Origin: Nemertoderma westbladi | Lineage: Eukaryota; Animalia; Xenacoelomorpha | NCBI GenBank assembly: GCA_032718475.1 | Contig: JAUCBJ010002030.1 | Location: 8,422 to 72,421 of the forward strand | Direction: 5' to 3' | DNA length: 64,000 nucleotides | Shown: positions 15,201-50,912 of the stretch, piece by piece | Numbering within the stretch: the stretch's first letter is position 1 | Layout of the letters: each line of letters begins with the position of its first letter | Program-made: the position numbers and the translations under genes | The notes under the pieces: model-generated | Seen by the model: the letters and a program-made list of their open reading frames with translations, nothing else | Databases searched by the model: none | What the model was told of the DNA's origin: nothing

Positions 15201-15207
15201 CCGCTCC
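15201..15207 (-). promoter_or_regulatory. E1 polypurine tract (GGAGCGG) abutting the 3' LTR
   Basis: Same GGAGCGG sequence abuts the E2 3' LTR. Confidence 0.7.
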
Positions 15208-16089: not shown

Positions 16090-19000
16090 TTATCGCTTAG
16101 TTGATCGAGCCCTGCCGCGTCCTCGAAAACTGCGCACAGGTGACTTTGCTCGCGATATGGGACTTGTGGGGCGAGTCACTGGTTTCGTTTGGACGTTGAG
16201 AGACGGTGCGACTATTTCCTCGCAAATTCGTCTATTTGGCATCCCAAAACCTCGACCGATTCCTCGTGACCGATCAGTTGTCACTACAGTTGGTAGAACG
16301 TCTGGGAACGCGCGAGAAGCGGACGACACAGACCCAAGAGTAGCTTGCGCCCCCTTTTGATCAGCTGGTGTATGTCCCGATCCTCCTGTTGGTTCTCTAG
16401 GAAGCGATACCGTATCCCGAGTAATTCGAATGGTCGGCTCGACTCCCTTGCGTTCTTCTATATTAATAGACTTCTTTAACTGTTGGCCCACTTTCTGGAC
16501 CCGTATGATCCTACCCTGTCCGTCCTCCCGAGGGTGACGTGCAGACGGCGCAACCGGAGTGGCTGGTATATTTGTCGCCTCTAGGACCTCCTCTTCCTCG
16601 AATACGCTCGCTCGTATACGTTTATGGTAAAACGCGGCTCGGTACGCCCATGCGACGGTTAACCAAGCTCCTTTATTCCGCTTTTCAGTTCGGAAACGAT
16701 CGAATTCACCATACGTGATACGATTTACGACTTTCTGAAAATTCCACGTGTTTTTGTTATCCGGGTGAATCTGTAGTAGATACTCGCGCACTACTCGGAA
16801 TCCACTGTCGTGGGGCAAAATATCGACTACCTCGATAAGTTCGTCATATTGGGGCATAGCGGAGATATATCCTTCCGACATCATCGTTTGGGGATTTACC
16901 GCCCAAAATCCAAGATGCGCCCTCATCGGAAATCGTCTTCTTTGTGCCGATACATGTTCGTCGGCTAAATCTTCCCACTCATCAAATAATTTTCTCACGA
17001 GTTTTACAGATTCGTGTTCATAAGGTATGTCTCTTAGTTGGCATTCAGATGCTCGATGTCCCTTTATATTGCAATAAGTACATTGAGCCATAAATCTCCA
17101 GCAAGTATAAAAGGTATGAGACCCTTGATCTCCACACCATCCACAGATTAGCTGAGTCGTAGTAATGTGCTTTCCACTGCACTTGGTCATATGATGTCCA
17201 GCGACGCCACATTTACCACACATCGTATTGGCAGGGTACCACACTCGTTCGTATATAAGATCTCCAATCGGTCGAGCGCTTCCGCCCACACTATAATCGT
17301 AATCATCTGGATCTATGGGTTGGTAGGTTTCTGAAGGTTGTATACAAACTATAGCATCTGTTGCTTCAAGTTGTCGAATCTCCGTCTGAGATTTCTTCGG
17401 GAGGTTCCTTTCTATCTCAAGAAGTTCCTCTAAAGGATCGTCAGCGATCGTAGTAGTTACTTCGAAATCATCACCAAGGTGACCGATAGGCGCGCGCGTC
17501 TGCCGTGATTCATCCGTAATCTCCACGATACGTTCTCCTTCATAGGGTAACAATGTAAACATAGATGGTCTTTCGATAAGAGATCCCGCACAGCGAAGAT
17601 ACACGTCTCGAAATATACTAAATCCTGCTCGAGTAAAGGCATTACACTGAGCGTCGGAGTTGTAGAAGGGTTCAAGGAATCGTCTAAACACATCGGTATG
17701 AATTCTCCCTTCCATGTAGAACGTATGATCTTCTCCGAGACAAAGTGGATGTCTTTTGAGAGTCCGAGACACAATGTCGGCGATTAGGCAAACATTCACT
17801 GACGACTCTATTGCTAAATAATATTGTAAGACCGCTCTTGGAGGTGACGTAATAGCCCAATACACGCATCCTCTCCATTTAAGCTGTGATTCAAACTCAC
17901 TCATATCTGGAGTATCACCTTCTCCATAAGTCTCAATATACTTGTTTCTCTTACTTTCCTTATAATCCCAATTGAATAACAGGTAGGAAATGTATCCAGT
18001 TCCAGTCTTCTGAGTATTATACTCACGAAAATATCCCTGTTCTATAGACCACAAAATAAGAGGTTGAGTGTCGACGTAAGGTGTCGGTAGTCGGTCATCG
18101 CTGTCCGTCATGCCGGCGAAGTCGCTAATTAAGTCCTCCCTTACTCCTGATCCAATCTTTACAACAGTTTTATCTAAAATGATGTTTCTTACCATCTTCG
18201 GTAGCATTCTAGCGTCGATATTACAAGCTTGGTCCATCTTCTTTACTATGTCGGTGATAAGATGGTGTCGCTTTGTATTCGCTGGAGGTATCGGCATTCG
18301 TTTGTCGCTCCTCTGTCTACTGAAAACGTGCAGGACTCCGTCCGCCGCTCTAATTTGTATAGTCTTAGAAGTCAAACTCTGCTGATGACTGCCGCCCTCG
18401 TTATCGTAAAACATGTAACCATTTTCATGAAACGATCTAAACGTCCTATTCCATTCATCCAACAATTCTTCCGAAGGTTGCCAAATCTTCTCTATGTCCT
18501 TATCATCTTCGAAACGAATAACCTTACCTCGCCAATCCGCGGCAATATCTGTATCCGACTCGAAGGTTCCGGTTCCAATCCATAAACGAATCGTCTTGGT
18601 TAAATATCCTTTCAGATTACTCGGAGCTATATCGGCACCAGCTCTATCCAGTTCCTTAAAGTCTTGAATATGAGGTGGAACGTTGTACACGACCTTTTGA
18701 GTAATATGTCTACGTAAATCATATATCTTACTCATATCGCTGAAAACAACTGCAGGAAGAAACTCCAAGTTTGAAATGATTTCTGGATGATCCACGATGG
18801 GTATTTCGTACGTCGTATCCTGTCGGACTGGTATACTAATAGGAAAATTGAGTGTCGTACTCAATGGTTTCGTAGTTAAAGTACTATATGGTTGCATTTC
18901 TCTTGTCCTCTCCGGGGATGCAATCTGTAGTCTCTGAATAACGTTTTGAGCAAAGTTTATGCTCTCGAAAACTTCCGGTGTCATCTCCTTAGCTGGAGTT

Positions 19001-19815
19001 TGATCGTGTGACGTCCAATGGCAAGGTAGGCTCGCGAGTCTTCCGCCCCATTCTTCCATCTCACCTTTCTCGAAAGCCTTGTAGGCTCTGTATAGGCTAA
19101 GAGCTTCTTTCTTTTCGCGGGTTGACTGATTTGCCTCGTCCAGCGTAAGTTCAAATACATCGGGATCAACAACCTTAGGTGGGTAAATGACAGTTTCTCC
19201 CGCCTTTGGTCCGGTCATAGCAAATGAATGATATGGATTCGATAAAGGATACCCTCCTTCCTGGTAGCGTAGTTGTTGATGGTTCGAACACCTCGCCAAT
19301 ATCGGTTCGGGATTTTCCTTATTCAAATGCATCGGAATCGCATTTCGTTGTTCGCGCATACAAGAACCGCATTGATAATAAAGTTTATAAACTGAAAATG
19401 CTTCCTTGGTTTCTCTATCGTCCCCTCGAGTTCGTCTGTAAAGATGCATTCCATCGAATTCATCTCTTACCGCGGGCATAGGTTCGTGCGCCTTTAGGTA
19501 TTGCATGGTATGATACAAACGACTAATTTCAGTATCGGGGTCTTCGCTAATGTCTCCCGTATCACACAAAGCGTCGTACGGGTAAAGTTCATTGAAGGTT
19601 TTGCGCAAACTTTCGATTCTTTCGTTTAATGCATTTTGTCTTCTCTTTAATACGTTCGAGTCATATTTAGTTCTCGCGAGTTTCGCTGTACTTTCCGATA
19701 ATTCCTTTATACCGAATATAGTGTAGTCCTTGGCTCCAAATCTTTCAAATGGCGCTGCTGCCTCCTCTTGGATATCATATCCCCATCTCGGCTCTCCCTG
19801 TATCACTTTCTCCAT
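16090..19815 (-). CDS. E1 ORF3 (~1241 aa from the first ATG): unassigned N-terminal Cys/His domain + DEDDy 3'-5' exonuclease-like domain + 3 CCHC zinc knuckles + basic tail
   Basis: Intact ORF. ExoI-like FYDNEG followed by TIQIRAADG; LPKMVRNIILDKTVVKIGSGVREDL (ExoII); YVDTQ; W...P...QYYLAIE (ExoIII-like). Knuckles CGKCGVAGHHMTKC, CGWCGDQGSHTFYTC, CTYCNIKGHRASEC. Confidence 0.85.
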   Translation of the reverse strand: MEKVIQGEPRWGYDIQEEAAAPFERFGAKDYTIFGIKELSESTAKLARTKYDSNVLKRRQNALNERIESLRKTFNELYPYDALCDTGDISEDPDTEISRLYHTMQYLKAHEPMPAVRDEFDGMHLYRRTRGDDRETKEAFSVYKLYYQCGSCMREQRNAIPMHLNKENPEPILARCSNHQQLRYQEGGYPLSNPYHSFAMTGPKAGETVIYPPKVVDPDVFELTLDEANQSTREKKEALSLYRAYKAFEKGEMEEWGGRLASLPCHWTSHDQTPAKEMTPEVFESINFAQNVIQRLQIASPERTREMQPYSTLTTKPLSTTLNFPISIPVRQDTTYEIPIVDHPEIISNLEFLPAVVFSDMSKIYDLRRHITQKVVYNVPPHIQDFKELDRAGADIAPSNLKGYLTKTIRLWIGTGTFESDTDIAADWRGKVIRFEDDKDIEKIWQPSEELLDEWNRTFRSFHENGYMFYDNEGGSHQQSLTSKTIQIRAADGVLHVFSRQRSDKRMPIPPANTKRHHLITDIVKKMDQACNIDARMLPKMVRNIILDKTVVKIGSGVREDLISDFAGMTDSDDRLPTPYVDTQPLILWSIEQGYFREYNTQKTGTGYISYLLFNWDYKESKRNKYIETYGEGDTPDMSEFESQLKWRGCVYWAITSPPRAVLQYYLAIESSVNVCLIADIVSRTLKRHPLCLGEDHTFYMEGRIHTDVFRRFLEPFYNSDAQCNAFTRAGFSIFRDVYLRCAGSLIERPSMFTLLPYEGERIVEITDESRQTRAPIGHLGDDFEVTTTIADDPLEELLEIERNLPKKSQTEIRQLEATDAIVCIQPSETYQPIDPDDYDYSVGGSARPIGDLIYERVWYPANTMCGKCGVAGHHMTKCSGKHITTTQLICGWCGDQGSHTFYTCWRFMAQCTYCNIKGHRASECQLRDIPYEHESVKLVRKLFDEWEDLADEHVSAQRRRFPMRAHLGFWAVNPQTMMSEGYISAMPQYDELIEVVDILPHDSGFRVVREYLLQIHPDNKNTWNFQKVVNRITYGEFDRFRTEKRNKGAWLTVAWAYRAAFYHKRIRASVFEEEEVLEATNIPATPVAPSARHPREDGQGRIIRVQKVGQQLKKSINIEERKGVEPTIRITRDTVSLPREPTGGSGHTPADQKGAQATLGSVSSASRAFPDVLPTVVTTDRSRGIGRGFGMPNRRICEEIVAPSLNVQTKPVTRPTSPISRAKSPVRSFRGRGRARSTKR

Positions 19816-20478: not shown

Positions 20479-23400
20479 TTATTTACTAATATTAGGTGGA
20501 GATTTGTAGTCTCCAGAATCGTTACGAGTCTCTTCAAGAAGTACGAGACGTTGAGTCGGTCTGTCTACTGTACGACCGTCAATTGTCCGTACCGTCACAG
20601 TTCTTGTCACTCCATCCATAGATGGATGTGTGTCTAAAATTACACCTGTTATCCAGAAGCGTCTTTTTAGATTCACTTCCGCTAACAGCACGTGATCTCC
20701 CGGCTTTAATGCGCGGGTGTTATTGTACCAAGTTGTTCTGGCAGAAATAGAGGGCAAATAATGGTTTTGCCATATTTCCCAGAATTTGTTAGCTAGTAGT
20801 TGCGTGATTTTCCACGCCTTTCTACCGTAGCTATCGCTTTCTATTGGAATAGAAATAGGCGTCAATGTGGTCGGTGCCTGCATTAGCAGGTGTGCCGGTG
20901 TCAAAGCAAACTGAGATTGTTTGTCATCGGGTACTAATACTATTGGTCTAGTATTTAGTATTGCCTCGATTTCAACAAACAATGTTGTCAGTTGGTCGTC
21001 TGTCAATATGTGGTTTACTAGAATGACCTTTGCCATGGCTGTCTTTATAGATCTAATCAATCTCTCCCAGACTCCGCCTCTCCATGGACTATCTGGAGGA
21101 TTAAACTTCCAAACAATCTTGTAAGGACGTAGTTCGTTTGAGATTTGATCATGATCTAATTTCTTAAAGGCTCTAGCAATCTCATTCCGAGCACCAACAA
21201 AGTTTGTCCCTTGGTCTGAGTACAAGCATTTCACTAGTCCGCGTCTAGCGATAAATCGCCGCAATGCTAGTATAAACGCGTTGGTGGAAAGATCCATCAC
21301 ACGTTCAATATGAACTGCCCTACTGGACATACATGTGAAAATCAGTCCCCAGCGTTTTACTAGTATACGTCCACGTTTCGTATGTATGGGACCAAAGCAA
21401 TCAATTCCAGTCTCTGTAAAAGGTGGTCTGAATGCTTGAAGTCGTGCTTGTGGAAGTTCACTCATTTCTTGGGTACCTATTCTAGAATGTACCTTTTTAC
21501 AAATAATACACGTACGTGTCACTGAACTTAATGCTTTACTGGGTCTAATTAATACAAATCTTGTACGTAAGTAGGAAAGACAGTGGTGTCTTCCAGCGTG
21601 TTTCAGATGTAAATGTGCGTCCAGTATCATTGCACGTTGTAGTTCGTGATGCTGCGGTATTATTATTGGGTATCTAAAGTTTGTGTTAAAGTCAATGTTT
21701 TGAAGCCGAGATTTATGACAAATTAAGCCATTATAAATAATCGGACTCCAACTCAGTATTGGTGACGACTTGATTGGTTGACCTTGATTTATAGATGTGA
21801 ATTCGCGTGCGAAATATCGCAGTTGGTAATGGCGAATTAATTTAATTTCACACCTGTCAATCTCAGCCAATGTAAGTCGACGTGTAAAGTCTCGTTTGCC
21901 TTTAACGTATTGTACAAAACGTACAATCCACGCTAATTTTCGGCAAGCGTTTGTCCAAGAGTCTGTTAAGTTTACAATACGGTCGACGTGAGTATTTGTG
22001 ACGTCATCAGGTAAGTCAATGGAGATTTTGGAAGGTTTTGATTTACTAGAAGGGCCCACGGGTCCGCCGGTAAGTATTCCCTTGTTGACTGTTGATCCGT
22101 CCGGGTCTACAAGTAATTTGTCCTTCTTCGTCTTCTTACCTTGATTGTCAGTACTTTGTAAGTCGATCGTTAATGGTGGTTTGAACTCTATGGGGTCACT
22201 GGGTTTCGGTAAACTTATTTTTCTGCCGACATTAATCCCAGGTCTTACCATAGGTTGCAAGTTTGGTATGTCTCTTGAGCGCAAAGTAACACCTGTATTT
22301 ACATTAGCGTAGGTACTACCCACATCTGTAATACATGAGGTTTCACCGTGCTTACGGTTGCTCAAGTGTGTCAAATTTGGTAGTTTGTCAATACAAGGCC
22401 GCTCCAATAGAGAAACTGCGGCTTCACTATTTGTCAGTATGTCACTAGTGTCTGGTAGAACATTTTGTGATATGTCTGGCAAAATGTCTGGTTGGCTGTC
22501 TAGTAACGTGTCTAGTTGACCGTCTGGCGATATGTCTGGTGTAGAAAGGCTCGCAAGTCTTCCTCTCTTGACCTTTGAAGTTATATCTTTCCATTTCGCC
22601 TTCGGTTTTTTCTTGAGTTTAGCCGCCGTCTTTTTCTTTGCTTTCCCTTTCTTTGGTTTTTTGATTTCCGCGTCTTTAGGGATAGTGTTAGACTTGTTGT
22701 CATATAGTGGTGGCCAATTTAGTGTTGATCTTTGTAAGAATTGTGGTCCGTGTTGCCAAAATTCTTTGTTCTCCGGTTTACAGAATTCCTCAGGCATCAT
22801 TCCTCTTGACGCAATATCGGCTGGGTTTTGTGGTCCGGGACAATGTCTCCAATCTTCTTTTATTGAACGGTCTAGAATTTCCGCGCGACGGTTAGCTACG
22901 AATGTCTTGAATTCAAGTGTGTCGTTGTTTATGTAAAATAAAACCAACGTCGCGTCAGTCCAATAAAATATCTGTAAACTTGACTGTAGTTCTGTCTGTA
23001 TAAGGTTCACAATTGTGGTTGACAGTGTTGCGGCTTGTAGCTCAGCTCGTGGTGTCGTCATATACTTAGTAGGCATTGTTTTTGCCTTAGAAGTAATGAG
23101 CGAAACATCGAATTCTTCTGAGTCTACTTGTCTGCGCAAGTACGCTGCCACACCAAAACCGTTGTCACTGGCGTCCGAAAAACAATGTAATTCCAAGTTG
23201 TCAGGAAATGTTGTTTGTAATGGAAAGTAGACTCTGGGTATGGAATAATCCTCTAGCGAAGATAATTCTGCCTCCCAGGTCTTCCATAAGTCCACTTGGT
23301 CTGATGAGATCGGCTCGTCCCATGTCAGTCCATCCTTCCAAATACTGCGCATATAAATGCGGGCTTGCAGTATTATTGGACTGATGAATCCTAATGGATC

Positions 23401-25944
23401 GAACAATCGGCTCAATTTTGACAAGCATGATCTCTTTGTCAGTGTGTTTTCTTGACTGTCCAGTCTCACCCTCACTCGAAAGTTGTCTGTGTTTGGGTCC
23501 CAAAAGAGCCCCAACACCTTGGTCGTCGGTAGTGGTTCGAACTCTAGGTCTATGTCACCACCTCCACGCTCAGTCGTTCCGAATGAGTCTACTAATTCGG
23601 CACTGTTTGAGGCGAATTTGGTGAGGTTAAAACCTCCGCCCGCTAAGCAGTCCCGTAATTGATGTGCTACTGTTACAGCACGTTCTACTGTGTCACAACT
23701 CTGTAAACCGTCGTCGACGTAAAAGTCACGCTCCACAATCCTAATTATCTCTGGGTCATATAAATGTTTCTGATCCCTAGCGGCTTGTTTTAGGGCGTAC
23801 ATCGTACAGTTTGGGCTGTCTCTGGCACCGAAAACGCGAACTTGCATTTGGTAAGTCGCCGGTGGTAGACTTAAGTCTCCTTCCGGATACCAGAGGAACC
23901 TCAAACTGTCTCTGTCTTGCTCTAACGCTCTCACTTGGTGAAACATAGCTTCAACGTCACAAGTAAAAGCTACTTGACGCTGACGGAAGCGCATAATCAC
24001 CCCCATAAGATAATTATTCATGTTTGGTCCATCCATCAACTCGCTATTGAGGGACATTCCCTCAAACAGAGCCGCACAGTCATTGACTACACGTACTTTG
24101 TCTGGTTTGTCGGGGTGTCTCACATAGTGATGTGGCAGGTAGTATGTCTGGTTAGTCACTATCTCTGGGTTAGTCATTCGGATAGCGTATCCCTTAGTCA
24201 AATACGTCTCCATCTGAGTGTTGTACTGCAGATGGGCTTTCTCGTCCTTTAATAGACGTTGCCGTATTGAGTGTAGACGTCTTAAAGCTAGTGGGTAGTT
24301 ATTTATAAGTTTAGGACTTTGGCTACGCCATAACATCCCCACCTCATAATGTCCGTCTTTCGCCTGGCGGATAGTATCTTCCATGATCCTCAAAGATTGT
24401 TTCTCCTGTTCCGACATACATGGTTCGTAGCTACCAGGTTCAGCTGTATCTTGTTCTAACCACCTGATAGTCTTCTCCGTTAATTCTTTGTCCAATGCAG
24501 CTTGTTCCACTTGATGATTTCTCAACGCGTCATCATCGATATCGACGGGCATTGTTGAGGTTGTTGGGGTAGGTAGACTCGCAAGCCTTCCGGCGTTATC
24601 ATCTGTCGTCGATGGAATCTCTAGCTGACTCGTCTTCTCCCCAAGTTCTAAACTCACCTGGTGAATTAGCTGCTCCTTGTGACTTATCTTACTAGTTACA
24701 CGTCTGTCATGTTTTGTATGTAAGGTAGTATGGTCCACGTCGTGTGAAAAGGAATGAATTGAATTTGTAGTTAATAAACTACATGTACTTTGTACATCGT
24801 CTTCCTCGTCACTTATGTCCAGTGTGCGCACAGGCGCTCGAGTATACCACCCTATCGGCGTTCTACAGGCGTATGCGTTTCCCGCTACGACTGCCGATGG
24901 TCTGGTTTCCCACACTTGATGTAGGTTGAATTGGTCTGTCCCGATCAGCATGGCTACCGATCTATAATTGACAGGACATTCAGGTACACCAAGGTGTCTG
25001 AAATATTTACGGTCCTCCAAGGATTGTTCTGGGACAGGACCTAGTAGGTTACTAAAGTCTTTGGTGGCCACAAAAGTCAAATCCTTGAAGGGTAACAAAG
25101 ACCTCTCCTTTTCGCTGTGTTGCGATTTTGGAAGAAGAGTGTCTAAGTTTAACTTAACTCGTGTCACTGGTATTGCACGTTGTCCGTGCATACTACTTAC
25201 GGTGTAACTGACGCGCTTACCTTGTCTGAGATCCGTCACTACATCAGCTATCTGCTCATCCACGTAGCTGTGAGATGAGGCTGAATCCAGGATAGCGTAG
25301 ATTCTCTTGCTCCCCTTTGTGCCAGTAATCTTAATTGGAATTACGCTGAATCCCTTTAGTTGGTCAGTCGTCAGAAGCGCGATCGATGGTTGGTCGTCTC
25401 CATCAGAATATACGTCGTCGTCTTCTGACTCTTCGTCCAACGATCCGGATTGTTCTGAGAAGCAATCCTTGATATGTGTCACAAAGGTTGGAGTCGTTTT
25501 CGATTCTCGATTTTTGTAGGCCGCATCACATCTCGCTGCTGCTTCCGGGTGTTCCCTGGCGAAGCGTTTTGTTGGCGTGTGGCTGTCTGTGTGGAGCAGA
25601 CCGTCGTGGTTGTGTCCACAGGATGGACAAGTGTTGGTATTTGGGCAATCTTTGCGAACGTGTCCGTGTCGCGTACACCGCCAACAAGAGTCCAATGGCC
25701 GTATCTGCAGCCGTCGTTCTTCCGAGTTTAACTCGCGAAACTGTCGACAACCTCTCAACTTGTGACCGATATACCGCTTGCCTAAATGCTCGCAGTATTG
25801 GCAGCCGCTGAAGTCGGTACCGAGTTGCTGTCTAGTCTGTTTTGTCCCAATGGGCGCAGATACCCTACTACCGTCCGAGAATTGTCGGGTTTCCGTCGGT
25901 GTGGCGTAAGTGGCCGTCTTGGTGGATGTTGTCTGGGGTTTTTG
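20479..25944 (-). CDS. pol: E1 NC-Pol: three BEL zinc knuckles, aspartic protease, RT, RNase H, integrase (in frame with gag, after a single TGA)
   Basis: CWRCTRHGHVRKDC, CPSCGHNHDGLLH; ILDSAS; YYLPHH, CDVEAMF, FYVDD; CFSDAS, RAELQAA, WTDA, NPAD; H...H...CIIC, GIDCFG, SDQGTNF, WERLIRS. Frame is open from 25944. Confidence 0.95.
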   Translation of the reverse strand, partial: QKPQTTSTKTATYATPTETRQFSDGSRVSAPIGTKQTRQQLGTDFSGCQYCEHLGKRYIGHKLRGCRQFRELNSEERRLQIRPLDSCWRCTRHGHVRKDCPNTNTCPSCGHNHDGLLHTDSHTPTKRFAREHPEAAARCDAAYKNRESKTTPTFVTHIKDCFSEQSGSLDEESEDDDVYSDGDDQPSIALLTTDQLKGFSVIPIKITGTKGSKRIYAILDSASSHSYVDEQIADVVTDLRQGKRVSYTVSSMHGQRAIPVTRVKLNLDTLLPKSQHSEKERSLLPFKDLTFVATKDFSNLLGPVPEQSLEDRKYFRHLGVPECPVNYRSVAMLIGTDQFNLHQVWETRPSAVVAGNAYACRTPIGWYTRAPVRTLDISDEEDDVQSTCSLLTTNSIHSFSHDVDHTTLHTKHDRRVTSKISHKEQLIHQVSLELGEKTSQLEIPSTTDDNAGRLASLPTPTTSTMPVDIDDDALRNHQVEQAALDKELTEKTIRWLEQDTAEPGSYEPCMSEQEKQSLRIMEDTIRQAKDGHYEVGMLWRSQSPKLINNYPLALRRLHSIRQRLLKDEKAHLQYNTQMETYLTKGYAIRMTNPEIVTNQTYYLPHHYVRHPDKPDKVRVVNDCAALFEGMSLNSELMDGPNMNNYLMGVIMRFRQRQVAFTCDVEAMFHQVRALEQDRDSLRFLWYPEGDLSLPPATYQMQVRVFGARDSPNCTMYALKQAARDQKHLYDPEIIRIVERDFYVDDGLQSCDTVERAVTVAHQLRDCLAGGGFNLTKFASNSAELVDSFGTTERGGGDIDLEFEPLPTTKVLGLFWDPNTDNFRVRVRLDSQENTLTKRSCLSKLSRLFDPLGFISPIILQARIYMRSIWKDGLTWDEPISSDQVDLWKTWEAELSSLEDYSIPRVYFPLQTTFPDNLELHCFSDASDNGFGVAAYLRRQVDSEEFDVSLITSKAKTMPTKYMTTPRAELQAATLSTTIVNLIQTELQSSLQIFYWTDATLVLFYINNDTLEFKTFVANRRAEILDRSIKEDWRHCPGPQNPADIASRGMMPEEFCKPENKEFWQHGPQFLQRSTLNWPPLYDNKSNTIPKDAEIKKPKKGKAKKKTAAKLKKKPKAKWKDITSKVKRGRLASLSTPDISPDGQLDTLLDSQPDILPDISQNVLPDTSDILTNSEAAVSLLERPCIDKLPNLTHLSNRKHGETSCITDVGSTYANVNTGVTLRSRDIPNLQPMVRPGINVGRKISLPKPSDPIEFKPPLTIDLQSTDNQGKKTKKDKLLVDPDGSTVNKGILTGGPVGPSSKSKPSKISIDLPDDVTNTHVDRIVNLTDSWTNACRKLAWIVRFVQYVKGKRDFTRRLTLAEIDRCEIKLIRHYQLRYFAREFTSINQGQPIKSSPILSWSPIIYNGLICHKSRLQNIDFNTNFRYPIIIPQHHELQRAMILDAHLHLKHAGRHHCLSYLRTRFVLIRPSKALSSVTRTCIICKKVHSRIGTQEMSELPQARLQAFRPPFTETGIDCFGPIHTKRGRILVKRWGLIFTCMSSRAVHIERVMDLSTNAFILALRRFIARRGLVKCLYSDQGTNFVGARNEIARAFKKLDHDQISNELRPYKIVWKFNPPDSPWRGGVWERLIRSIKTAMAKVILVNHILTDDQLTTLFVEIEAILNTRPIVLVPDDKQSQFALTPAHLLMQAPTTLTPISIPIESDSYGRKAWKITQLLANKFWEIWQNHYLPSISARTTWYNNTRALKPGDHVLLAEVNLKRRFWITGVILDTHPSMDGVTRTVTVRTIDGRTVDRPTQRLVLLEETRNDSGDYKSPPNISK

Positions 25945-28900
25945 TCAGTTTGAGGATGGCAAGGTGATTCCTTCTGCCACGATGTGCTGGTCAGTGTAGT
26001 TGGATTGAGTTTCTACCACTGCCTCCCTGGATATCAAAATGTACACATCCTCCAGTTTTAAGAATCCATCCCGCTCTTCTCGCTGGTATTCGATCTTCCT
26101 CCACTCCCGACGAAGTCGATGGTGGAGTCGTCCTATGATCTTTAATAGGACTGTAGGGGTATTCCCGTAGTCAAGTTGTCCAATGGATCTCAAAGTAGTG
26201 ATAGCGTTCTTTATCTCGTCAGCCAGTTTCAATAAGTCTACGGGTTTAGTAATAGCCCCTCCCTTACAGAGTTCCTCTATCACTGACCTGGCCATGCTGA
26301 CTGTACCTCTGTAGATCGAAGTTAAACGATCGTACGCTAGTTCGAAAGCGTCCGGTACACCAACAAAGGTCTCCGCCAAACGTTTAGGTTCTCCTGACAA
26401 CGTTTGAAGCAGGTAATTAAACTTCTCCCGTGATGTAAAGGCGCACACGGCGATCTGAGATTCGATATAGTCTACGAAAGTGTGCCAGTGTTTTGAACTA
26501 CCGGAAAACTTCGGTGGTTGTTGTACCGGCAATCCCTGTCTGGCTGCGAATTTCGCTATCTCCTCGGCAACGTTCAGAATTTCGCGTCCTTGGTTGGTAA
26601 TCTGGTTGATATCCCTTCTTGGCGCTTTTCCCTGATACGATGTGTGTTTTGAAGGTACCGGTCTTTGTGGTTCCTTCGGGTGTCTATTGTGTTCGAATTC
26701 AGTGTTCCTCGAACTATCGGTTTGAACTTCCTCCAGACGTTCCTCAATCTGAGCCAACTTGTTAACAACTGGTCGCAGGATGTCGGCGAACTGTTGTATA
26801 CTGATTGCGTCCGTTGGTTGTAACGCCTTCTGTGTTGGTGTATTCTGTGGAGGATTGTCTACAAAGGAGTTGTCTGAACGCTCGCGTTTATATTCATCGG
26901 CCGCCCCTGTTCTAAATACCTCGCGTTTCGGGTAATCCGATTCGCTCGAAGTACTACTATCATCTGGATATGGTGGTCGACATGTTCGCGTCCGTTGCGT
27001 CGTCCGAATTCTAACGTTTCGCCTCGGAACATCGTCCACTGATCTCCGCTGCTCGGTAGGCTCACAAGTCTTCCTTGAAGTCGTAGATTGCGATGTAAAC
27101 TGGTTGAACGGTCGCATATCCACTGGTCTCCGTTGTTCGGTAGGCTCACAAGTCTTCCTCGAAGTCGTAGATTGCGATGTAAACTGGACCGGTGGTCGAA
27201 TAGCCGCCTTTGAATCAACTGGCCTTGTAGGCCGAAATGTCATTGGGTATTCGTAGTGTGTAACCGGTTTAGGTGTCAAAGGTGGACTCACGTGTTTTGT
27301 CGTTAGTAGTGCAGGTCCGGTCAATAAACTACTACGATCTGTAATCGGTGGGTTACTTACCTTGACTTTCAGAATAGGCGACGACGTTGCTCTTGGCGGT
27401 GTAAACTTGTCCGGAATAACAAACCTGTGTTCCGTCGCACCATGGATAGGAGAAATATCACTACTACCCGCAATCGAAACAGGTTTCTTAGTTGTAACTG
27501 GTGCGAACATAGGGGTTACTTGAGGGAATCTTTGACATAAGTCTTTAACTAATTGTCGTTCCCGTCCGGGTGCTCCTACGCTTCCTTCCTTCTTCCGTTC
27601 CTGAATTTGGCGATGTCTTACCTCTAACTGGTCCAAATCATGTCCGTCACGAGATCTCATTGATCGATCGCGGGCCTTTTGATCCAGATCCTCCTCGGCG
27701 TTCGCTAATTCTCTCGCCTTCTTCTCGAGTTCAAAATGAAGTTTAGCTGTCTTCTCTCGTTGTTCCGTTTGTTGTCGTTGCGCCTCAAACTCCGCTTGTC
27801 GTATAGCGGATTGAGCTTTTATTTGCCGTGTTTTCATTTCGGCCCGTGCTTCCGAAACTAATCGTTCTCGCTCTAATTCCGCCACTGCCGTTTGTCGCTC
27901 TAGTTCTGCCATTTGTCGCTCTAATTCCGCCGCTGCCGTTTGTCGCTCTAGTTCGGCCGCTGCCGTTTGTCGCTTTAATTCTGCCGTTTGTCGCTCTAAT
28001 TCCGCCGCTGCCGTTTGTCGCTCTAGTTCTGCCGCTGCGTTTCGTTGCGCTAAATCAGCCGCTGCCGTTCGTTGAGCAATGTCTACCTCTAACCTTTCTA
28101 CTTCAGCTGCTTCTAATTCAGCTTGTTCCTGTAGATGAGAGATTCTCGCTACATTCGCAACGCGTAGCTTCTCTTCTTCTGCTGCTGCCTGCATCACTAG
28201 AAGTTGAGCTTGTTCCTCCATTTCTCGTCGTTGTCGGTAGAATTCTTGCTGTTGTCGAGCAACTTCTGACGTAACCATACTTCCCTCGCCAATTTCGCTA
28301 CGAATACTTACCAACGATTGATCCAATATTCCCGTTGCCGATTCGATTCGTACGGGTGAAGTTTCCCTCGTATATTCCGGCACGGTTTCCAAATCGCCGA
28401 CGTCGACGCACATACGTAAGTGATCCGTCAGGTGTTTCAATTGTCCATCCAGTCGGTACAGTTCCTGTTCTTCCTCGGGTTGTAATAATTCGTCCGAAAC
28501 TGACTCACCTAACAACTGGTCCGCTTGTTCCTGTTGTATCTGCCTAATCGTCGACTTAAACTGAATCAGTTTCTCTCTAGCGATCATTAGTTTATCGAGG
28601 ATTCTAAGTTGAGTATCCATGTCCTGTCTCTGTCTAGCTAGATCTTGTAGACCAATTAGGTTATCTACGGACTTGTGTACTCTACTTTGTACTCTAACCT
28701 GGAGGGTGTAGAACTCGAATCGAGACATCGGAGCGGTCAACTCGTTTAAAATGCGTTGGCCTTCTCCAATACTCCTGGTTATATGCGCCATGTATCCGCC
28801 GACGCTTCTAACCACACTCTCCTGACTTCCTGCTGAACTTACCATGTCTGTTTCCCTGTATCTAGGTTGTGGAACAGTTAGAAAGTCCTCGGTCCTGCCG

Positions 28901-29073
28901 TCGCCTCGTACTACGGCATCCGGTACTCCCGTTGGATGTACTGGTGACGCACACGGTGTAGGTTCGGTAGGCTCGCGAGTCTTCCCCTGTTGTTCTTCCG
29001 CTGCTGACTTATCTCCGTCGCATGAGTCATAGTCGGTAGGTGTATTCTTCGTATAGTCTTGTTTGTCACTCAT
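25945..29073 (-). CDS. gag: E1 Gag (1042 aa; coiled-coil TAAAELERQ repeats, BEL capsid-like region)
   Basis: PPKFSG..W..F...EKFNYLLQTLSGEPK...AYDRLTSIY motif typical of BEL/Pao Gag; lies after the 5' LTR. Confidence 0.92.
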   Translation of the reverse strand: MSDKQDYTKNTPTDYDSCDGDKSAAEEQQGKTREPTEPTPCASPVHPTGVPDAVVRGDGRTEDFLTVPQPRYRETDMVSSAGSQESVVRSVGGYMAHITRSIGEGQRILNELTAPMSRFEFYTLQVRVQSRVHKSVDNLIGLQDLARQRQDMDTQLRILDKLMIAREKLIQFKSTIRQIQQEQADQLLGESVSDELLQPEEEQELYRLDGQLKHLTDHLRMCVDVGDLETVPEYTRETSPVRIESATGILDQSLVSIRSEIGEGSMVTSEVARQQQEFYRQRREMEEQAQLLVMQAAAEEEKLRVANVARISHLQEQAELEAAEVERLEVDIAQRTAAADLAQRNAAAELERQTAAAELERQTAELKRQTAAAELERQTAAAELERQMAELERQTAVAELERERLVSEARAEMKTRQIKAQSAIRQAEFEAQRQQTEQREKTAKLHFELEKKARELANAEEDLDQKARDRSMRSRDGHDLDQLEVRHRQIQERKKEGSVGAPGRERQLVKDLCQRFPQVTPMFAPVTTKKPVSIAGSSDISPIHGATEHRFVIPDKFTPPRATSSPILKVKVSNPPITDRSSLLTGPALLTTKHVSPPLTPKPVTHYEYPMTFRPTRPVDSKAAIRPPVQFTSQSTTSRKTCEPTEQRRPVDMRPFNQFTSQSTTSRKTCEPTEQRRSVDDVPRRNVRIRTTQRTRTCRPPYPDDSSTSSESDYPKREVFRTGAADEYKRERSDNSFVDNPPQNTPTQKALQPTDAISIQQFADILRPVVNKLAQIEERLEEVQTDSSRNTEFEHNRHPKEPQRPVPSKHTSYQGKAPRRDINQITNQGREILNVAEEIAKFAARQGLPVQQPPKFSGSSKHWHTFVDYIESQIAVCAFTSREKFNYLLQTLSGEPKRLAETFVGVPDAFELAYDRLTSIYRGTVSMARSVIEELCKGGAITKPVDLLKLADEIKNAITTLRSIGQLDYGNTPTVLLKIIGRLHHRLRREWRKIEYQREERDGFLKLEDVYILISREAVVETQSNYTDQHIVAEGITLPSSN

Positions 29074-29872
29074 TTCGGTAGTTGTAAGTCAAGTAAAGTG
29101 AGTGTCAAAGTATCAAACTTACCATATTTTATCTAAACGGTACTAATTACAGTCATATAAAATTAGCCTACCGGCCGATTTTATAGCAGATGGATAAAAT
29201 TAGCCTAAACGGCCAATTTTACAGCAAATAAATGTCACGGAATAAGTATATAATAAAATTAGCCTAGCGGCCAATTTTATAACAAATAAATCGGATAACG
29301 ATATGCGTTATCAAAAGGTAAATTAAATACAATAATACGGACTAATTCAGCAATGAACAAAGAAATCGTACGGAATGCATAAATACTTGAGGCAGTGGAA
29401 CCCACAATAATTTTAACTAATACGGTAATGCCTAACTTATTTATGCAACTTTTCGAACTCACCCACTCCAATAATTCTCCAGAAAAACAGATTCCCAGAT
29501 ACAAACCGGACGTGAACCTTTCCGTTTTTAACGTTGCGGACGAAGCGCGATTTTCCCAACCAAAGTTGTTGAGTTATCTATCTCCCAAACTTGCTAAACA
29601 CGGTCTTGCTCCCGTTACAGTCTAGAAATGAGTTCTGAATCCTGAAAAAACAAAAGAGTTAGGTTTTACTTTTTACGAAAATTTTGTACCGGTACAATAT
29701 GGTATTTAAACCCTTTTAAACACCGGTATTCAATTCCAAAATATTTTACACGCGGTTCAAATCAAATTTTTATTTCAAAAAATTAGCACTTAGCTAATCA
29801 AATACAAATTTTTACCTCAAAATACAAAATTTTCAAATAACTTTAGTCCTACCGAACCGTAGTTCAGTAAAA

Positions 29873-29883
29873 CATATTCCTAC
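29873..29883 (-). promoter_or_regulatory. E1 PBS-position sequence GTAGGAATATG, complementary to the element's own LTR (30911-30921)
   Basis: 11/11 reverse complement starting at the first base after the LTR; no TGG tRNA PBS nearby. Confidence 0.75.
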
Positions 29884-32706
29884 TAATGCGAAGAGACAGT
29901 AACAATACCTGCAATATCCTACTGTAAAGTTTGTGAATCAAATCATAAATCCGACCTTCTCACCAAACAGTAAACTCTAAGTAAGCGAATATATTGCAGT
30001 ATCGATCTCTTATAACCGGTGAGGCAGAAAACAGTCTACGAGCAGACAAACTTCGATAAAACAAAATCCCGCGCAGCGAATCCTAAAATCAGGCTGACTC
30101 ACTGACGGACTAAAGGGCTCGTATACTTTGCCGCGGTGTGATTTATATGGTTGGGCAAAGAGACGCTAGCTAGGTACAGAGGCAGAGATTTGGAGATGTC
30201 TAACTAGCGGGCAAAACACAGTAAGGACGAAAGTTAATTTTATATATTTTGAGGTGTAAATAATTTCTAACGCGCGTGTGTTAATTCTGAACGGTCAAAA
30301 GCAGTTTTGCTCCTTCACATATATAATTACTGGGTACGGTGTGCATTTTACGAATATTCTAATTTTGTAACTTGTAGGTCCAATACTCACGAATGATAAG
30401 GTTCCTTCCCCTCTTGCGTATTTCCAGGACTCAAATTCAGGCATAAGGTTAATGCTATGCCCAGAATTCGGCAATTTTAATTTACCAGGTCCCTAATACT
30501 AAGAAGAAATGTGTTAGTTTACTACAGTAGGCGTACGGTTACGAATAGCTATCCTGGCTCTTATCTAGAATTTTAGTCACCTAGGTAGGCTGGGTAACTT
30601 CCTATCAGGACGTTGGCGGGGACACGGTAGATGTTAGTATATCCCTAATAGCCTCAATTTATTTGCGCCTAGTTGTAAACTGCCCTACCGCCTGAACGGT
30701 ACAATCCCAATTCAGGTGAAACACAGCAACCCTCCTAGCCTACAAGTTCTAATGCAATGGACACCATTGTACTGCAAATAGTCGCAAACGCACCTGTACT
30801 TAGCAAGAGTTAGGCGTACAGTTTGCTGCACCCTACCAATGTGTATGCTTCGTACCGGCGTACCTACGTCCTATCTGCGTACTAGTATCTGCCTGCTCTC
30901 TCCCTCCCCCGTAGGAATATGAAGGTCTACTGTGGTTCTTTCCTGAATCAAGACAGTACAGTCCCTAAGATGTAATTTTAGGCTCACAGCGTGTCACTAC
31001 TTCTACCTTTGATCTTTGGTCTTACGCTTAGGTAGCAAGGCGTCGAACGCTGTCTAACCTTTCAGGCGATGGGCGAATAACTAAGGTGGTATTGCGGGTT
31101 GTCTCCTGTCTACATTCCCTTGATGTTCCCGTTCATTGCTGCGGCCCGATCTCTAGCCGGCCATCCTGTTCCTAAGAGTGTTCACCGTAGTGAATCATGG
31201 TGAAAAGAAAAGCAGATAGCAGTATTTCTGAATTTATTGCAGATAATAATACAAAATGTAATCTGAAAACTAATGACAGAATAAACAAGATTGAGTAACT
31301 AATAAGATTAGATAGATTGCACTGAGATTGATAACTAATGAACAAATCGCACCTTTATATAGCAAATTTGTGCTGCAATCAATCGAGAAAATTCTCGATT
31401 GTTCTATAGGTTCTAACAGGTTTTTAAAGATAGCTATTGGTCCAGCTAATATATAACTTGCACGACATTGGATACAATCTAATAACTGCAGTCTCATTGG
31501 TTAATCTAGGTACAAACAAATGCAATGGAGCCACTCCACGAGGCGAACCGCGCGGCACTGCGGGCGGCCACAACAACGCCACTCGAGATCGCCCGTCTTA
31601 ACGTTGTTGACGACCCGGTATCCGGTTGTTGGCTGGACGCTATTCCCATCAGCTCGCTAGGGCTGAAACTCACGGACTCCCAGTTCAGGGTTTCTGTCGC
31701 CACACGCCTCGGTTGCAAGTTAACCGAACCCCACAGGTGCTCCCGGTGCGGATCCGAAGTAAAACCGGATGGTCTCCACGGACTATCCTGTGTGAGAAGC
31801 GCCGGGAGGCTGCCACGCCACTCTATGTTAAACGACATAGTGAAACGTGCATTGGCCTCCTGTGGGGTTAGAGCTCGCCTTGAACCGGTCGGGTTGTGTA
31901 GGGCTGATGGGAAGCGTGTCGATGGCGTTACCCTCGAATCGTGGAGTGGGGGCCGGCCGATGACTGGGATGCGACCGTCGTCGACCCCCTCGCTCCCAGT
32001 CATCTCGCCCAGAGCATGCAGGCCGGCCGCCATGTTGTCGAGGAGGCGGAAAACTCAAAGATTAAGAAATACGAGGAACTGACCGTCCGAGGGAGCTACC
32101 TCTTCTACCCGGTAGCATTCGAGACCTTCGGTCGGCCCGGTCCTGAGACGGCTGCATTCCTTAAGGAGGTTGGCCGACGCCTCCACGCAGCCACTCAGGA
32201 GCCGCGATCCCATCGGTTCCTCCTCCAACGTCTCCTCGTAGCCATCTTGATCGGCAACACGGCCTCCATCCTCGGCTCCATGGACCCTCTGTCCGACGGC
32301 CTCTACGACGAGGTTTTGTCGCCAGCTGCCCCCGCACCCCCCACTGACTCAGCGGGTTAGACTGATCTTGAACTTTTGTATATAGTTAGGTAGGTAGTTT
32401 ATATTAATTTAGTTAGTGTGCCTCATTGTGCTATAAGAAAATAATGCAATTTAATTTGTAGCGGTTAATTTAAATGAGTTGAAATTCTGTACAAAAAATA
32501 ATTCGCACTTACTAGGATTCGAACTCAATACCTACTACACATATAATTTCCAACGCTCTACCGACTGAGCTACTGAACCACTTGACTAAACGTCGTACAA
32601 TAGATATAATAAATACAAATGAGGACTCAAAGTAATCTTTTACAAAGTTAATTCGAATAAAATAAAATTTTGAAAATCCACGGCATTTAGGGAATATAAT
32701 TCTATA
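29884..32706 (-). repeat. E1 5' LTR, interrupted by a 916-bp CRE-like insert
   Basis: Matches 13302-15200 at offset 16582 before and 17506 after the insert. Confidence 0.95.
31527..32442 (+). mobile_element. 5'-truncated CRE-like non-LTR retrotransposon (zinc knuckle + restriction-like endonuclease), frameshifted
   Basis: CSRCG...HGLSC, RHSMLND, DGKRVDG, WDATVVD, EEAENSKIKKY, FYPVAFETFG; 8-bp TSD AATGCAAT at 31519-31526 and 32443-32450; absent from the other LTR. Confidence 0.88.
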
Positions 32707-39306: not shown

Positions 39307-40448
39307 TGTTCGCGCTTTTAGACCTTTAGCAGTTTAACCTGCCAATTTTAGTTGTGCTTTTGTTTATAAATCGACTTTAGCCTATATAAATTATTTAGTG
39401 TACTGAAATTACATCAGCCGAAGCCAGTCTGTGCGCGACCATTCACCCACAGTTAAGGGAGACTGGATTCGGATGCTTTGATAGTGATTGCGGTGTAGAC
39501 CTACTGTATTATTCGATTGATCGTTACTATATAATCTCTGACAATATATTTACTTTCGGGGAAATATTAACAGTTCCTTTAGGACGTGGCGCTTTAAGTA
39601 TAAAAACAGAGTTATGACTTATACTAATCACAACTAGATGGCCACTACTGAGTTTCGTAAAAAGCGCATTCTTTAGGAGATGCTTATTACTTCACACTAC
39701 TTCACACTGACTTCACACTACTTCACACTGAATCTGCCGACCATCACTGAATTTGATCATATATAAGGAGGATCGCAACTGACACATGTAGGGATTATGA
39801 AATAGCATTTAATTCACACAAAAACCACTATAATGTAAGTCGCAGTTGCTACCGGTAAACCTGTTCCTCTCACCTTCAGTAATCAAGAAGATTGGGGGTT
39901 TTATGATTATTCATTGGTATTCTCCAAATATATCAGCAATATACATCAATATCACAACAATTAATAACAGAAGTAAAATAATGCGGTGAACAGTCAGTAT
40001 GTGTTACTTATGCAGTGTTCCATGTGCAGCAATGTTATGCAGTGTGTCGTTCGTGATTCAGATTGGTGATCCAAGTCAGTTAATAGTTTTACGTTCTTGT
40101 AATCAAAGCCATCAGATGTTTAGGCCAAAGTCTGAAACTTCCACAACAGAAGTACAGAATAACTCTAAGCCGGTTCTCTGGCTCAGAAAGGTAAACAAAT
40201 ACCGTAATGCATTGCGCGGTTTTCCATAGGCCCCTGTCCAACATAAAGTGAAAATCGCTCTGATTGGCTGAGCAGAACAAAGAGGTTCCACGTCTACAGG
40301 AAATCAGCTGACAGATTTCGTCATCTGAGCTCCAATCTTTTAGAGTATTATGCGCATTGCGGCAAAAACGACTTGTTATGTCCGCTAAAGCACCTACACT
40401 GCGCATTGCGGGGAAAAATGACTTGTTATGTCCGCAAAAGCTTTTACA
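39307..40448 (-). repeat. E2 3' LTR (1142 bp)
   Basis: Direct repeat of 50913-52068 with several indels and substitutions. Confidence 0.93.
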
Positions 40449-46639: not shown

Positions 46640-46641
46640 CT

Positions 46642-49023: not shown

Positions 49024-50912
49024 GATTTATTTTACAGTTGAATGCCTACTACTGTAACGACAGTTAAAGCAAGTCTAGTAATTCAGTATCAACTGTAAGC
49101 CTCGTAATTAATTACCGATACCGTTACTCAGTGTAACATGATATATATAATTAATATTAAAATACCGGTATACTTATAGTATATATATAAGTATTATTAC
49201 AGACTAGAATTAGTTACAGAATACCGGTATATAATTTCAGGCTAAATTTATATAAATAAATATAATAAGCCTACCGTAAATACCGGTATACACCTATGGT
49301 ATATATAAGTATTATTATAGACTAGGATTAGTCACAGAATACCGGTATATAATTTCAGCCTAAATTTATATAAATATATATAAAAATCCTACTTTGAATA
49401 CCGGTAATGTCAATTATTTTATAATAACTGTATTTCTGAATTTTTAGGGTTACTTCCCTTTACTTATTACTGTTATTAAGCAGTAGTTCAACTGATATTA
49501 AGACCTAATGGATGTATAACAGGCCTACTATTTTATAAATCGGTTTGAGTTGATTTATAATATATATATATACCCGTACAAGGGGTTTTGTCAATGTTTG
49601 AAATAAATGTTATTATTTCTGGGTAAGGTGTCACTACACAAAAGCTGTTCGCTCTCAGTGGAGTGCTACTTGATGGACACTAAAACGAATAATTCTACTT
49701 TACTAAGTTACTTATCACTAGAAATTACTTACAATCACAGTTTGAGACTACAATCTCTAAATAAACACTAAAAAGTTACACATACAAGTTTTAGGGTAAT
49801 TTTACAAGAAATCTACAAACCAGCCTAACAAGGAGTTAGAATTTCTGGTTCTTACAAACTGACAGGATACTACGGTATTTGAAAACAATAAAGCAGTAGT
49901 AAGTAAATTGCGTTGTCCAGATAAGAAAATACCACCGTCTGACGACTTATAGTCTTAGCTCTATAAGTACTACGTTATGTATCCGGAGTGTCCTTACCTA
50001 GAAGTTAATTACTGCAGCCAACCAGAGCTAACATGCCTATTAACCACTTTACAACACAAATATACTGCCTATACACTAATTACTTTCAGAAAGCACTGTA
50101 CACTAAACCCTAAATTAGGTACAAGTACTTATACAACAAATAACCAGCAGTTAAATATACTTGAACAGCTAAAAGAACCACGGTATCTGCTGGAGTGACC
50201 GGAGCACAAAATCACCAGTCTTTACCTACGCCAAGCAGCCCTGATGTAGTACTGGGGTTAATTTAACTATAACGGTATGTATAACAAACACAATTACTGT
50301 AGTAATAAACTTGGGGGTTGTAGGTTGCGAATACTCGCATAGACTCTGAATAATAAATATTACGCTACCCGTGCAGACTATACAAACTAAATACAGACCA
50401 AATGCTGGCAGACTACTGGCAAGCCTAAATAAACTACAGTATATGCAGACTCCGAAATGGTTAGTTAGTAGGCGTTCTAACCGAGTAGTACGACTTATTC
50501 TTTCGGGGAGGATTTACCTTACAGCACTGGATGCCCCCACCTTCCTAACTAGCACTTTATCGGACAGACACTCTATACACACTGCAATCGCTTCAGACCT
50601 AACAACAGCTAGACAACAATCCGGCCTACAAATTATTTGTACAATCTGAGCAGGCTTACACGCCTTCTGCTCAATATTACAACTTACAGATAAATAAAAC
50701 TGACAGAAATAAGTAAACCATACAAAGGAATAAGGGGTGATCAATCCCTAATCCCCTAACAGCCTACAATATACAATATATCACAATCTAAATAATACTG
50801 GTACCTGTAAGTACCGGTTCGGGTAGTTTAGGCAGTTAGGCCTACAGTTTACCATCCGACTGGTACATTTGAATTTATTGCCTTCGTGCAATCAAGAGTT
50901 TAAAACTATTAA

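What the first reader, a model, noticed from the sequence alone, without database searches (positions are those of the whole stretch)
29873..30921. tRNA-independent self-priming signature in BEL/Pao LTR retrotransposons (four elements, three families)
Seen: no element has a TGG-type tRNA PBS after its 5' LTR. Instead the bases starting at the first nucleotide after the LTR are the exact reverse complement of a segment inside the same LTR. E1: GTAGGAATATG (29883-29873) vs 30911-30921, 11 nt. E2: TTAATAGTTTTA (50912-50901) vs 51701-51712, 12 nt, plus a further TCTTG/CAAGA match. E3: GTAACAGTTA (60697-60706) vs 59947-59956, 10 nt. E0 (LTR boundary less certain): GTTAAAAACCGTT (52580-52568) vs 52801-52813, 13 nt. 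In each case the LTR segment's 3' end pairs with the base adjacent to the LTR end, which is the geometry a minus-strand primer needs. In E1 the segment starts in an initiator-like TCATATT. Known: S. pombe Tf1 (Ty3/Gypsy) self-primes through an 11-nt pairing of its transcript 5' end with the PBS, whereas BEL/Pao elements are normally described as tRNA-primed. Inference: this BEL lineage primes reverse transcription with its own RNA; I know of no description of this in BEL/Pao.
Basis: partly seen in the sequence, partly recalled or inferred. Interest (0 to 1): 0.93.

Follow-up and report, generated by a model that had tools for sequence, protein, structure and literature searches.

The report
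Self-priming BEL/Pao retrotransposons
These animal jumping genes lack the usual landing site for a host tRNA, and the 10-13 bases right after their first terminal repeat instead pair with a stretch of that same repeat (in most sampled relatives only once a predicted intron is removed), so they likely start copying themselves with a piece of their own RNA.

Summary
Observation confirmed. E1, E2 and E3 are BEL/Pao elements with no TGG site after the 5' LTR. The first 10-12 bases there are exact reverse complements of an LTR-internal segment (3-7 of 3000 shuffles). E2 versus E3 shows two or three compensatory changes. E0 matches 13 nt, but its LTR end is unproven. Relatives agree: 9 of 9 metagenome loci with a two-copy LTR end match 11-15 nt, 7 of them across a predicted GT-AG splice junction (I moved two ends by hand). 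A fresh set under fixed rules gave 11 nt in 3 of 7, 9 nt in 2, and two weak or failed. Best reading: priming by the element's own RNA, likely the 5' R copy cut just past the duplex, Tf1-like (0.6; self-priming of any form about 0.8). Not shown: transcription start, splicing, cleavage, primer identity, since no RNA data were available. Global folding does not predict the duplex for E1-E3. ICTV describes BEL/Pao as tRNA-primed, and nine literature searches found no self-priming report. This scan noted the same pattern before in other genomes.

The parts
29884..32706 (-). E1 5' LTR (1899 bp plus an inserted non-LTR retrotransposon fragment at 31527-32442 with an 8-bp duplication); TA...TA ends
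   Evidence: TSD CCCTA at 32707-32711 and 13297-13301
30911..30921 (-). E1 candidate self-primer segment (11 nt), 1027 nt before the LTR end
29873..29883 (-). E1 primer-binding position, first 11 nt after the 5' LTR, complementary to 30911-30921
25945..29088 (-). E1 gag (DUF1759)
20479..25944 (-). E1 pol, open 1821-codon frame behind the gag stop codon: protease, RT, RNase H region (PF05380), integrase (PF17921, PF18701)
16090..19815 (-). E1 extra ORF (1241 aa) with a predicted 3'-5' exonuclease-like domain and zinc knuckles
   Evidence: language-model lead only
15201..15207 (-). E1 polypurine tract, same core as E2's
13302..15200 (-). E1 3' LTR, 7 mismatches in 1899 to the 5' copy
50913..52068 (-). 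E2 5' LTR, TG...CA, TSD TTGTA
51701..51712 (-). E2 candidate self-primer segment (12 nt), 788 nt before the LTR end
50901..50912 (-). E2 primer-binding position
39307..40448 (-). E2 3' LTR (1108 of 1132 aligned bases identical to the 5' copy, 34 gap positions); the element keeps gag, protease and an extra ORF but lacks RT/RNase H
59464..60696 (+). E3 5' LTR, same family as E2 (72-75% over its 3' half)
59947..59956 (+). E3 candidate self-primer segment (10 nt), aligned with the E2 segment
60697..60706 (+). E3 primer-binding position; a second copy follows at 60760-60770
60490..60503 (+). E3 LTR stretch complementary (14 nt) to leader 60712-60725; E2 has an 8-nt helix at the matching place (51091-51098 with 50887-50894)
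54986..56175 (+). solo LTR of the E2/E3 family, TSD GGTGG; confirms the family's LTR ends
52801..52813 (-). E0 candidate self-primer segment (13 nt), 220 nt before the presumed LTR end
52568..52580 (-). E0 presumed primer-binding position, 75 nt before the first ATG of a gag-like frame; LTR end not proven

Best explanation
These are BEL/Pao LTR retrotransposons with no TGG-type tRNA site, whose first 10-13 bases after the 5' LTR are complementary to a segment inside the same LTR, and they likely prime minus-strand DNA synthesis with their own RNA: the 5' copy of that segment would pair at the primer position and would be cut just 3' of the duplex, probably by the element's RNase H as in Tf1. 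Shown: the complementarity, its anchoring at the LTR end, the absence of TGG, and covariation between families. Inferred: that the segment lies in R, that the duplex forms, who cuts, and that the 5' rather than the 3' R copy is used. In most relatives the segment is split by a predicted intron, so splicing would build the primer. A cut just inside the second exon would let the strong-stop DNA jump to the 3' R before reaching the intron, which would explain why the intron is inherited. E1-E3 carry the segment uninterrupted. The primer may be longer than Tf1's 11 nt.
For: Window: exact anchored matches, each 0-7 of 3000 shuffles. E2 vs E3 align at the same LTR site. Pairs 5 and 10 are compensatory, and pair 1 too if aligned without MAFFT's one-base gap. 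Cognate duplexes give -21 and -25 kcal/mol against -12 and -13 when swapped. DNA contigs of related copies keep a 25-38 nt island over the E2 segment while the next 30-130 nt are replaced (weak, short sides). Relatives: 9 of 9 loci with a two-copy LTR end match 11-15 nt at offset 0-4, 7 across a consensus GT-AG junction, at most 2 of 300 shuffles, swap controls at most 9 nt, flank controls at most 8. Blind scan without a known end: 5 of 8 reach 11-13 nt, all junction type, at most 1 of 100 shuffles. Hold-out set with fixed rules: 3 of 7 reach 11 nt across junctions, at most 1 of 200. Sister loci L078/L079 differ by two compensatory changes beside the splice donor. A poly(A) hexamer follows the segment by 7-94 nt in 7 of 9 relatives, which would leave R for strand transfer. 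The 13 primer-position sequences all differ. Relatives share 36-62% RT identity with one another and E1.
Against: No RNA data: start site, splicing, cleavage and primer are unobserved. In whole-region folding the core duplex has probability about 0.1 in E1 and 0 in E2 and E3 (about 1 in E0); the loops are 740-1027 nt. E1 has poly(A) hexamers upstream of the segment (LTR positions 252 and 545) as well as downstream, and E2/E3 share no conserved hexamer, so placement in R is not shown for the window's elements. Hold-out: L079 and L089 reach 11 nt only when the 400-nt intron cap is lifted afterwards, L086 gives 8 nt (7 of 200) and L098 fails. Blind set: L028, L038 and L077 are not above the null, and the acceptor rule was relaxed after I had seen the sequences. 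Two LTR ends (L052, L076) were moved by hand. L077 and L088 have a TGG 1-3 nt after the presumed end. Host tRNAs and tRNA halves could not be compared, because no genome is held.
Confidence: 0.6

Rival explanations
1. Self-priming, but by the 3' R copy. The RNA's 3' end (spliced as a terminal exon in junction-type families) would pair at the primer position and be cut or trimmed back to the duplex, so the genome primes on itself as a loop.
For: The segment lies 124-167 nt after a TATA box in 4 of 5 relatives and 440 nt in E1, not at the predicted cap. An acceptor followed by a poly(A) signal is the layout of a terminal exon (established splicing knowledge, recalled). E1 encodes a predicted 3'-5' exonuclease domain.
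Against: Poly(A) hexamers lie after the segment in 7 of 9 relatives, so the natural 3' end is not at the duplex and tail removal would be needed. The exonuclease ORF has no tblastn match in 77 of 77 metagenome loci. The only experimentally shown precedent uses the 5' end (PMC7175516 passage).
Confidence: 0.2
2. The duplex is a conserved regulatory or packaging structure (a switch that marks spliced or full-length RNA), and priming uses something else, such as a tRNA half or a non-canonical site.
For: A second LTR-leader helix exists in E2/E3, so the region is structured beyond the primer position. tRNA-half priming is known in Ty1/copia (PMC6317226 passages). L077 and L088 have a TGG near the end.
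Against: The pairing begins 0-4 nt from the LTR end in every positive case, which is the position a primer must occupy. The sequences there differ in each family and follow their own LTR, not a shared host RNA (swap controls). No alternative primer site was found within 53-64 nt in 4 of 4 window elements.
Confidence: 0.15
3. Chance matches, or a DNA-level by-product such as a template switch that copied LTR sequence next to the LTR end.
For: The sequences are AT-rich, and the window has a background tail of inverted repeats (0.15-0.6% per position). E3's leader has a local duplication.
Against: Three independent families in one window, compensatory changes, and matches that appear only after removal of a consensus intron in many relatives.
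Confidence: 0.03

Closest known systems
Tf1/Tf2 of S. pombe, Tj1 of S. japonicus and the Tf1/sushi group (Ty3/gypsy, Metaviridae)
   Same: No tRNA site; about 11 nt after the 5' LTR complementary to the element's own LTR sequence, anchored at the LTR end (PMC7175516 and PMC4600332, passages seen).
   Different: Different superfamily. [quoted passage not shown] Here the segment appears to lie further in (TATA spacing), up to 1 kb from the LTR end, and in most relatives it spans a predicted splice junction.
Plant Ty1/copia TAR lineage (Houba, Osr-1) and plant Tcn1 chromoviruses
   Same: Self-priming predicted from LTR-PBS complementarity (PMC6317226 passages).
   Different: Other superfamilies and hosts; no intron-split primer was mentioned in the passages seen.
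BEL/Pao retrotransposons (Belpaoviridae, Semotivirus) as described by ICTV
   Same: Gag DUF1759, Pol order PR-RT-RH-IN with PF05380 and PF18701, LTRs, polypurine tract.
   Different: ICTV gives an 18-nt site for tRNA-Arg or tRNA-Gly, LTRs of 0.2-1.2 kb and genomes of 4.2-10 kb (PMC8742986, whole text). E1 has no such site, 1.9-kb LTRs with TA...TA ends, about 18.5 kb and an extra ORF.
Fungal GalEa Copia elements with a conserved hairpin site
   Same: The tRNA site is replaced by a self-complementary feature at the same position (PMC5445492 passages).
   Different: There the hairpin lies downstream and the authors found no complementary LTR sequence; here the partner is inside the LTR.

Membership tests
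BEL/Pao (Belpaoviridae) | Pol with Pao-type RT/RNase H and integrase in PR-RT-RH-IN order; Pao-type Gag | tested here: met
   E1: PF05380 E 2e-42, PF18701, PF17921, PF03564; the 120 listed homologues all carry PF05380, 32-44% identity. E2 and E0 carry only parts.
BEL/Pao (Belpaoviridae) | LTRs, target-site duplication, polypurine tract | tested here: met
   E1 and E2 have paired LTRs, 5-bp TSDs and the same PPT core; E0's 5' LTR is unproven.
BEL/Pao (Belpaoviridae) | 18-nt primer-binding site for the 3' end of host tRNA-Arg or tRNA-Gly (ICTV description) | tested here: not met
   No TGG within 53-64 nt in 4 of 4 elements. They are therefore called a variant of the BEL/Pao lineage, not typical members.
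BEL/Pao (Belpaoviridae) | Placement in a named clade (Sinbad, Sparrow, Surcouf, Suzu, Dan, Flow, BEL, Pao, Tas) by RT phylogeny | not tested
   No named reference sequences were at hand; the tree holds only unnamed loci and host-labelled proteins.
Tf1/sushi self-priming system | About 11-nt complementarity between the post-LTR position and the element's own LTR, with no tRNA site | tested here: met
Tf1/sushi self-priming system | The complementary segment is the first bases of the transcript | tested here: inconclusive
   Only promoter motifs could be read: TATA 31 nt upstream in L010, 124-167 nt in four other relatives, 440 nt in E1. Pairing upstream of the core is above shuffles in E3 (p 0.04) and L010 (0.008), not in E1 (0.45) or E0 (0.94).
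Tf1/sushi self-priming system | RNase H cleavage at the 3' end of the duplex makes the primer | not testable with these tools
   Needs biochemistry or RNA-end mapping.
Tf1/sushi self-priming system | Ty3/gypsy (chromovirus) ancestry | tested here: not met
   The proteins are BEL/Pao type. It works like Tf1 but is not a member of that group.

The most novel reading that the evidence does not exclude
A widespread lineage of animal BEL/Pao retrotransposons has abandoned tRNA priming and builds its own primer by host splicing: an intron in the LTR splits the primer sequence, so only spliced RNA can start reverse transcription, while the route of strand transfer keeps the intron in the progeny. The window's elements are intron-less members of this system, with the primer site up to 1 kb from the LTR end, and E1 adds an exonuclease-like protein that might trim the primer.
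Probability: 0.55. Interest if true: 0.88.

Novelty: new variant of a known kind. Interest (0 to 1): 0.72.

Why it matters
ICTV calls BEL/Pao replication poorly understood and assumes tRNA priming. If this holds, self-priming occurs in all three LTR-retrotransposon superfamilies, and a large group of animal elements is independent of host tRNAs and of defences aimed at tRNA sites. A primer assembled by splicing would tie reverse transcription to RNA processing in a way not seen in the Tf1 passages read here. It also gives a sequence rule for finding LTR ends and R regions in elements that tRNA-based annotation misses.

Tried and rejected
No whole genome is held, so there is no genome-wide survey and no host tRNA comparison. 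No RNA holder was listed among the sequencing runs. Viral-contig scans gave no loci. Of 77 metagenome loci, 9 had a two-copy LTR end and 9 more a presumed LTR start (L011 dropped as a coding tandem repeat); the other 59 were not tested. Of 22 genome-contig loci, 9 were tested automatically; L082 and L090 were dropped because their repeats are not LTRs (78-83% identity, no TG...CA), and 13 had no usable pair. A contiguous-only test on the nine relatives found 11 nt in 2 of 9 and 9 nt in 1. No splice junction improves the match in E1-E3. The idea that the segment ends at the poly(A) site was not supported here: hexamers follow the segment. No second copy of E0's presumed LTR was found. ARAGORN and Rfam found no tRNA in the window or in E1's LTR. 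For E1's extra ORF, Pfam (exonuclease region), PDB, homologue and representative searches were blank, and both structure predictions were unusable at pLDDT 31, so no fold search was run. The homologue search covered only proteins of 682-2172 aa.

Full report
Anatomy. The window holds nested BEL/Pao retrotransposons of an unnamed animal; no whole genome is held. E1 is a young element on the minus strand. Its LTRs are 1899 bp with TA...TA ends and 7 mismatches between copies, with a 5-bp target duplication CCCTA and a polypurine tract. A non-LTR fragment sits in the 5' LTR at 31527-32442. Gag and Pol are open and carry PF03564, PF05380, PF17921 and PF18701. E2 (39307-52068, TSD TTGTA) keeps gag, protease and an extra ORF but lacks RT and RNase H. 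E3 (5' LTR 59464-60696) and a solo LTR (54986-56175) belong to E2's family. E0 is an old, broken element into which E2, a LINE and E1 are nested; the sequence read as its 5' LTR has no second copy in the window.

Observation. All four complementary pairs are exact and start at the first base after the stated LTR end. Shuffled LTRs reach the same length in 4, 3, 7 and 0 of 3000 trials for E1, E2, E3 and E0, and random positions of the window do so in 0.15-0.6% of cases. No TGG occurs within 53-64 nt after the LTR in 4 of 4 elements. The E2 and E3 segments align at the same LTR site. Two pairs change on both sides, and a third does so if the one-base gap placed by MAFFT is not accepted. Own-partner duplexes are about 10 kcal/mol more stable than swapped ones. 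A second helix joins the late LTR to the leader in both (8 nt in E2, 14 nt in E3). DNA contigs of related copies keep a short island over the E2 segment while neighbouring bases are replaced; the sides are short and this is weak evidence.

Relatives. A profile of E1 Pol and 30 homologues fetched 77 metagenome loci. Nine had an LTR end fixed by two copies; I moved two ends (L052, L076) back by 10 and 3 nt after viewing them. Contiguous matches of 11 nt appeared in 2 of 9. With donors and acceptors chosen by splice consensus, 9 of 9 matched 11-15 nt at offset 0-4, 7 across a junction. Shuffled controls reached this in at most 2 of 300 trials, swapped partners gave at most 9 nt, and 3' flanks at most 8. 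A blind scan that did not know the LTR end recovered it in 4 of 4 positive controls (one within 2 nt). After I relaxed the acceptor rule on seeing the sequences, it gave 11-13 nt junction matches in 5 of 8 further loci (L031 is the same family as L030); L028, L038 and L077 were not above the null. As a hold-out, the same rule was run unchanged on 22 new loci, of which 7 had true LTR pairs. L078, L088 and L095 gave 11 nt across junctions (at most 1 of 200 shuffles), L079 and L089 gave 9 nt (2-3 of 200), L086 gave 8 nt and L098 failed. L079 and L089 reach 11 nt with consensus donors if introns of 451 and 697 nt are allowed, a change made afterwards. L078 and L079 differ by two compensatory changes next to the donor. 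The relatives share 36-62% RT identity with one another and with E1. All come from one search profile, so the spread across BEL/Pao as a whole is unknown, and no tRNA-primed control set was available.

Mechanism. The position of the pairing is the one a minus-strand primer must take, and its sequence follows each family's own LTR, not a shared host RNA. A match that exists only after removal of a consensus intron implies pairing in RNA, so the segment is likely transcribed; this is inference, since no RNA was seen. A poly(A) hexamer follows the segment by 7-94 nt in 7 of 9 relatives, which would place it in R with sequence left for strand transfer. I favour the Tf1 route: the 5' copy pairs, is cut just after the duplex, and the freed 3' end primes. 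In Tf1 the first 11 bases pair with the site and RNase H cuts between bases 11 and 12 (PMC7175516, passage). A cut a few bases into the second exon would stop strong-stop DNA short of the intron, so the intron could be inherited from an unspliced 3' R. E1-E3, L002 and L050 carry the segment whole. The primer may be longer than in Tf1, because the segment lies 124-167 nt after a TATA box in 4 of 5 relatives and 440 nt after one in E1. That spacing also fits a rival in which the 3' R copy primes after trimming.

Against. Whole-region folding gives the core duplex a probability of about 0.1 in E1 and 0 in E2 and E3, and about 1 in E0; long-range predictions are poor, but they do not support the pairing there. 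E1 has poly(A) hexamers on both sides of the segment. Pairing upstream of the core is mixed (combined p 0.09 for the window, 0.03 for the nine relatives). L077 and L088 have a TGG close to the LTR end. Host tRNA halves are untested. E0's boundary remains open.

Literature. ICTV describes an 18-nt site for tRNA-Arg or tRNA-Gly and calls replication poorly understood (PMC8742986, whole text). Self-priming is reported for Tf1/sushi and predicted for plant Tcn1 and Copia TAR elements (PMC6317226 and PMC4600332, passages). Term searches inside BEL/Pao surveys found no mention of a primer site or tRNA: PMC3118150, PMC554778, PMC6238403, PMC8556966 and PMC2774666 (main text only, supplements not read). 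Nine library searches (listings only) showed no report of self-priming or a splice-built primer in BEL/Pao. Subscription journals and repeat-database records were not searchable, so prior mention cannot be excluded. This scan's own notes report the pattern in other genomes; they are leads, not support.

Verdict. The feature is real and conserved. It works like Tf1 self-priming but in another superfamily and with a different layout: a new variant of a known kind. Self-priming in some form is about 0.8 likely, the 5'-copy route 0.6. Interest 0.72.

Noticed in passing
window 16090-19815 (-): E1 carries a 1241-aa ORF after pol. Residues about 450-700 resemble a 3'-5' exonuclease (30 of 30 named atlas hits PF01612, score 0.93), followed by zinc knuckles. 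No sequence homologue was found and folds were unusable. The active-site motif reading (WRN-like order, last acidic residue E) is recalled, not from a call.
   Followed up: partly
window 40925-42745 (-): E2's extra ORF shares about 130 aa with the N-terminal part of E1's (31%, E 3e-11), including a Cys/His motif; no family is known.
   Followed up: partly
window 13302-15200 and 29884-32706: E1's LTRs begin and end with TA instead of TG...CA; relatives L002, L013 and L052 also end in TA.
   Followed up: partly
window 25942-25947 (-): E1 gag and pol are in the same frame, separated by a single stop codon, which suggests readthrough.
   Followed up: no
window about 14995-15075 (-) and its copy near 32500-32580: A tRNA-like A-box/B-box stretch followed by a T run lies in E1's U3 (motifs recalled); ARAGORN and Rfam are negative.
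   Followed up: partly
window 60754-60790 (+): E3's leader repeats the last bases of the LTR and the primer-position sequence, giving a second 11-nt match.
   Followed up: no
window about 51475 and 50945 (-), with counterparts in E3 and the solo LTR: A donor-like and an acceptor-like site are conserved downstream of the segment in all three LTRs of the E2/E3 family; they may serve a spliced message.
   Followed up: no
window 31527-32442 (+): A 5'-truncated non-LTR retrotransposon fragment with a restriction-like endonuclease motif (recalled) and an 8-bp duplication is inserted in E1's 5' LTR.
   Followed up: partly
window 52568-52813 and loci L002-L076: 9 of 13 primer-position sequences start with GT, so the presumed primer often ends in AC; this may reflect a cleavage preference.
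   Followed up: no
L078-L099: 22 BEL/Pao loci lie in contigs filed under bacterial metagenome-assembled genomes, most likely host DNA binned by mistake.
   Followed up: no
window 4600-5800, 56150-57420, 58020-58630: Tandem arrays with 20-, 28- and 68-bp units.
   Followed up: no
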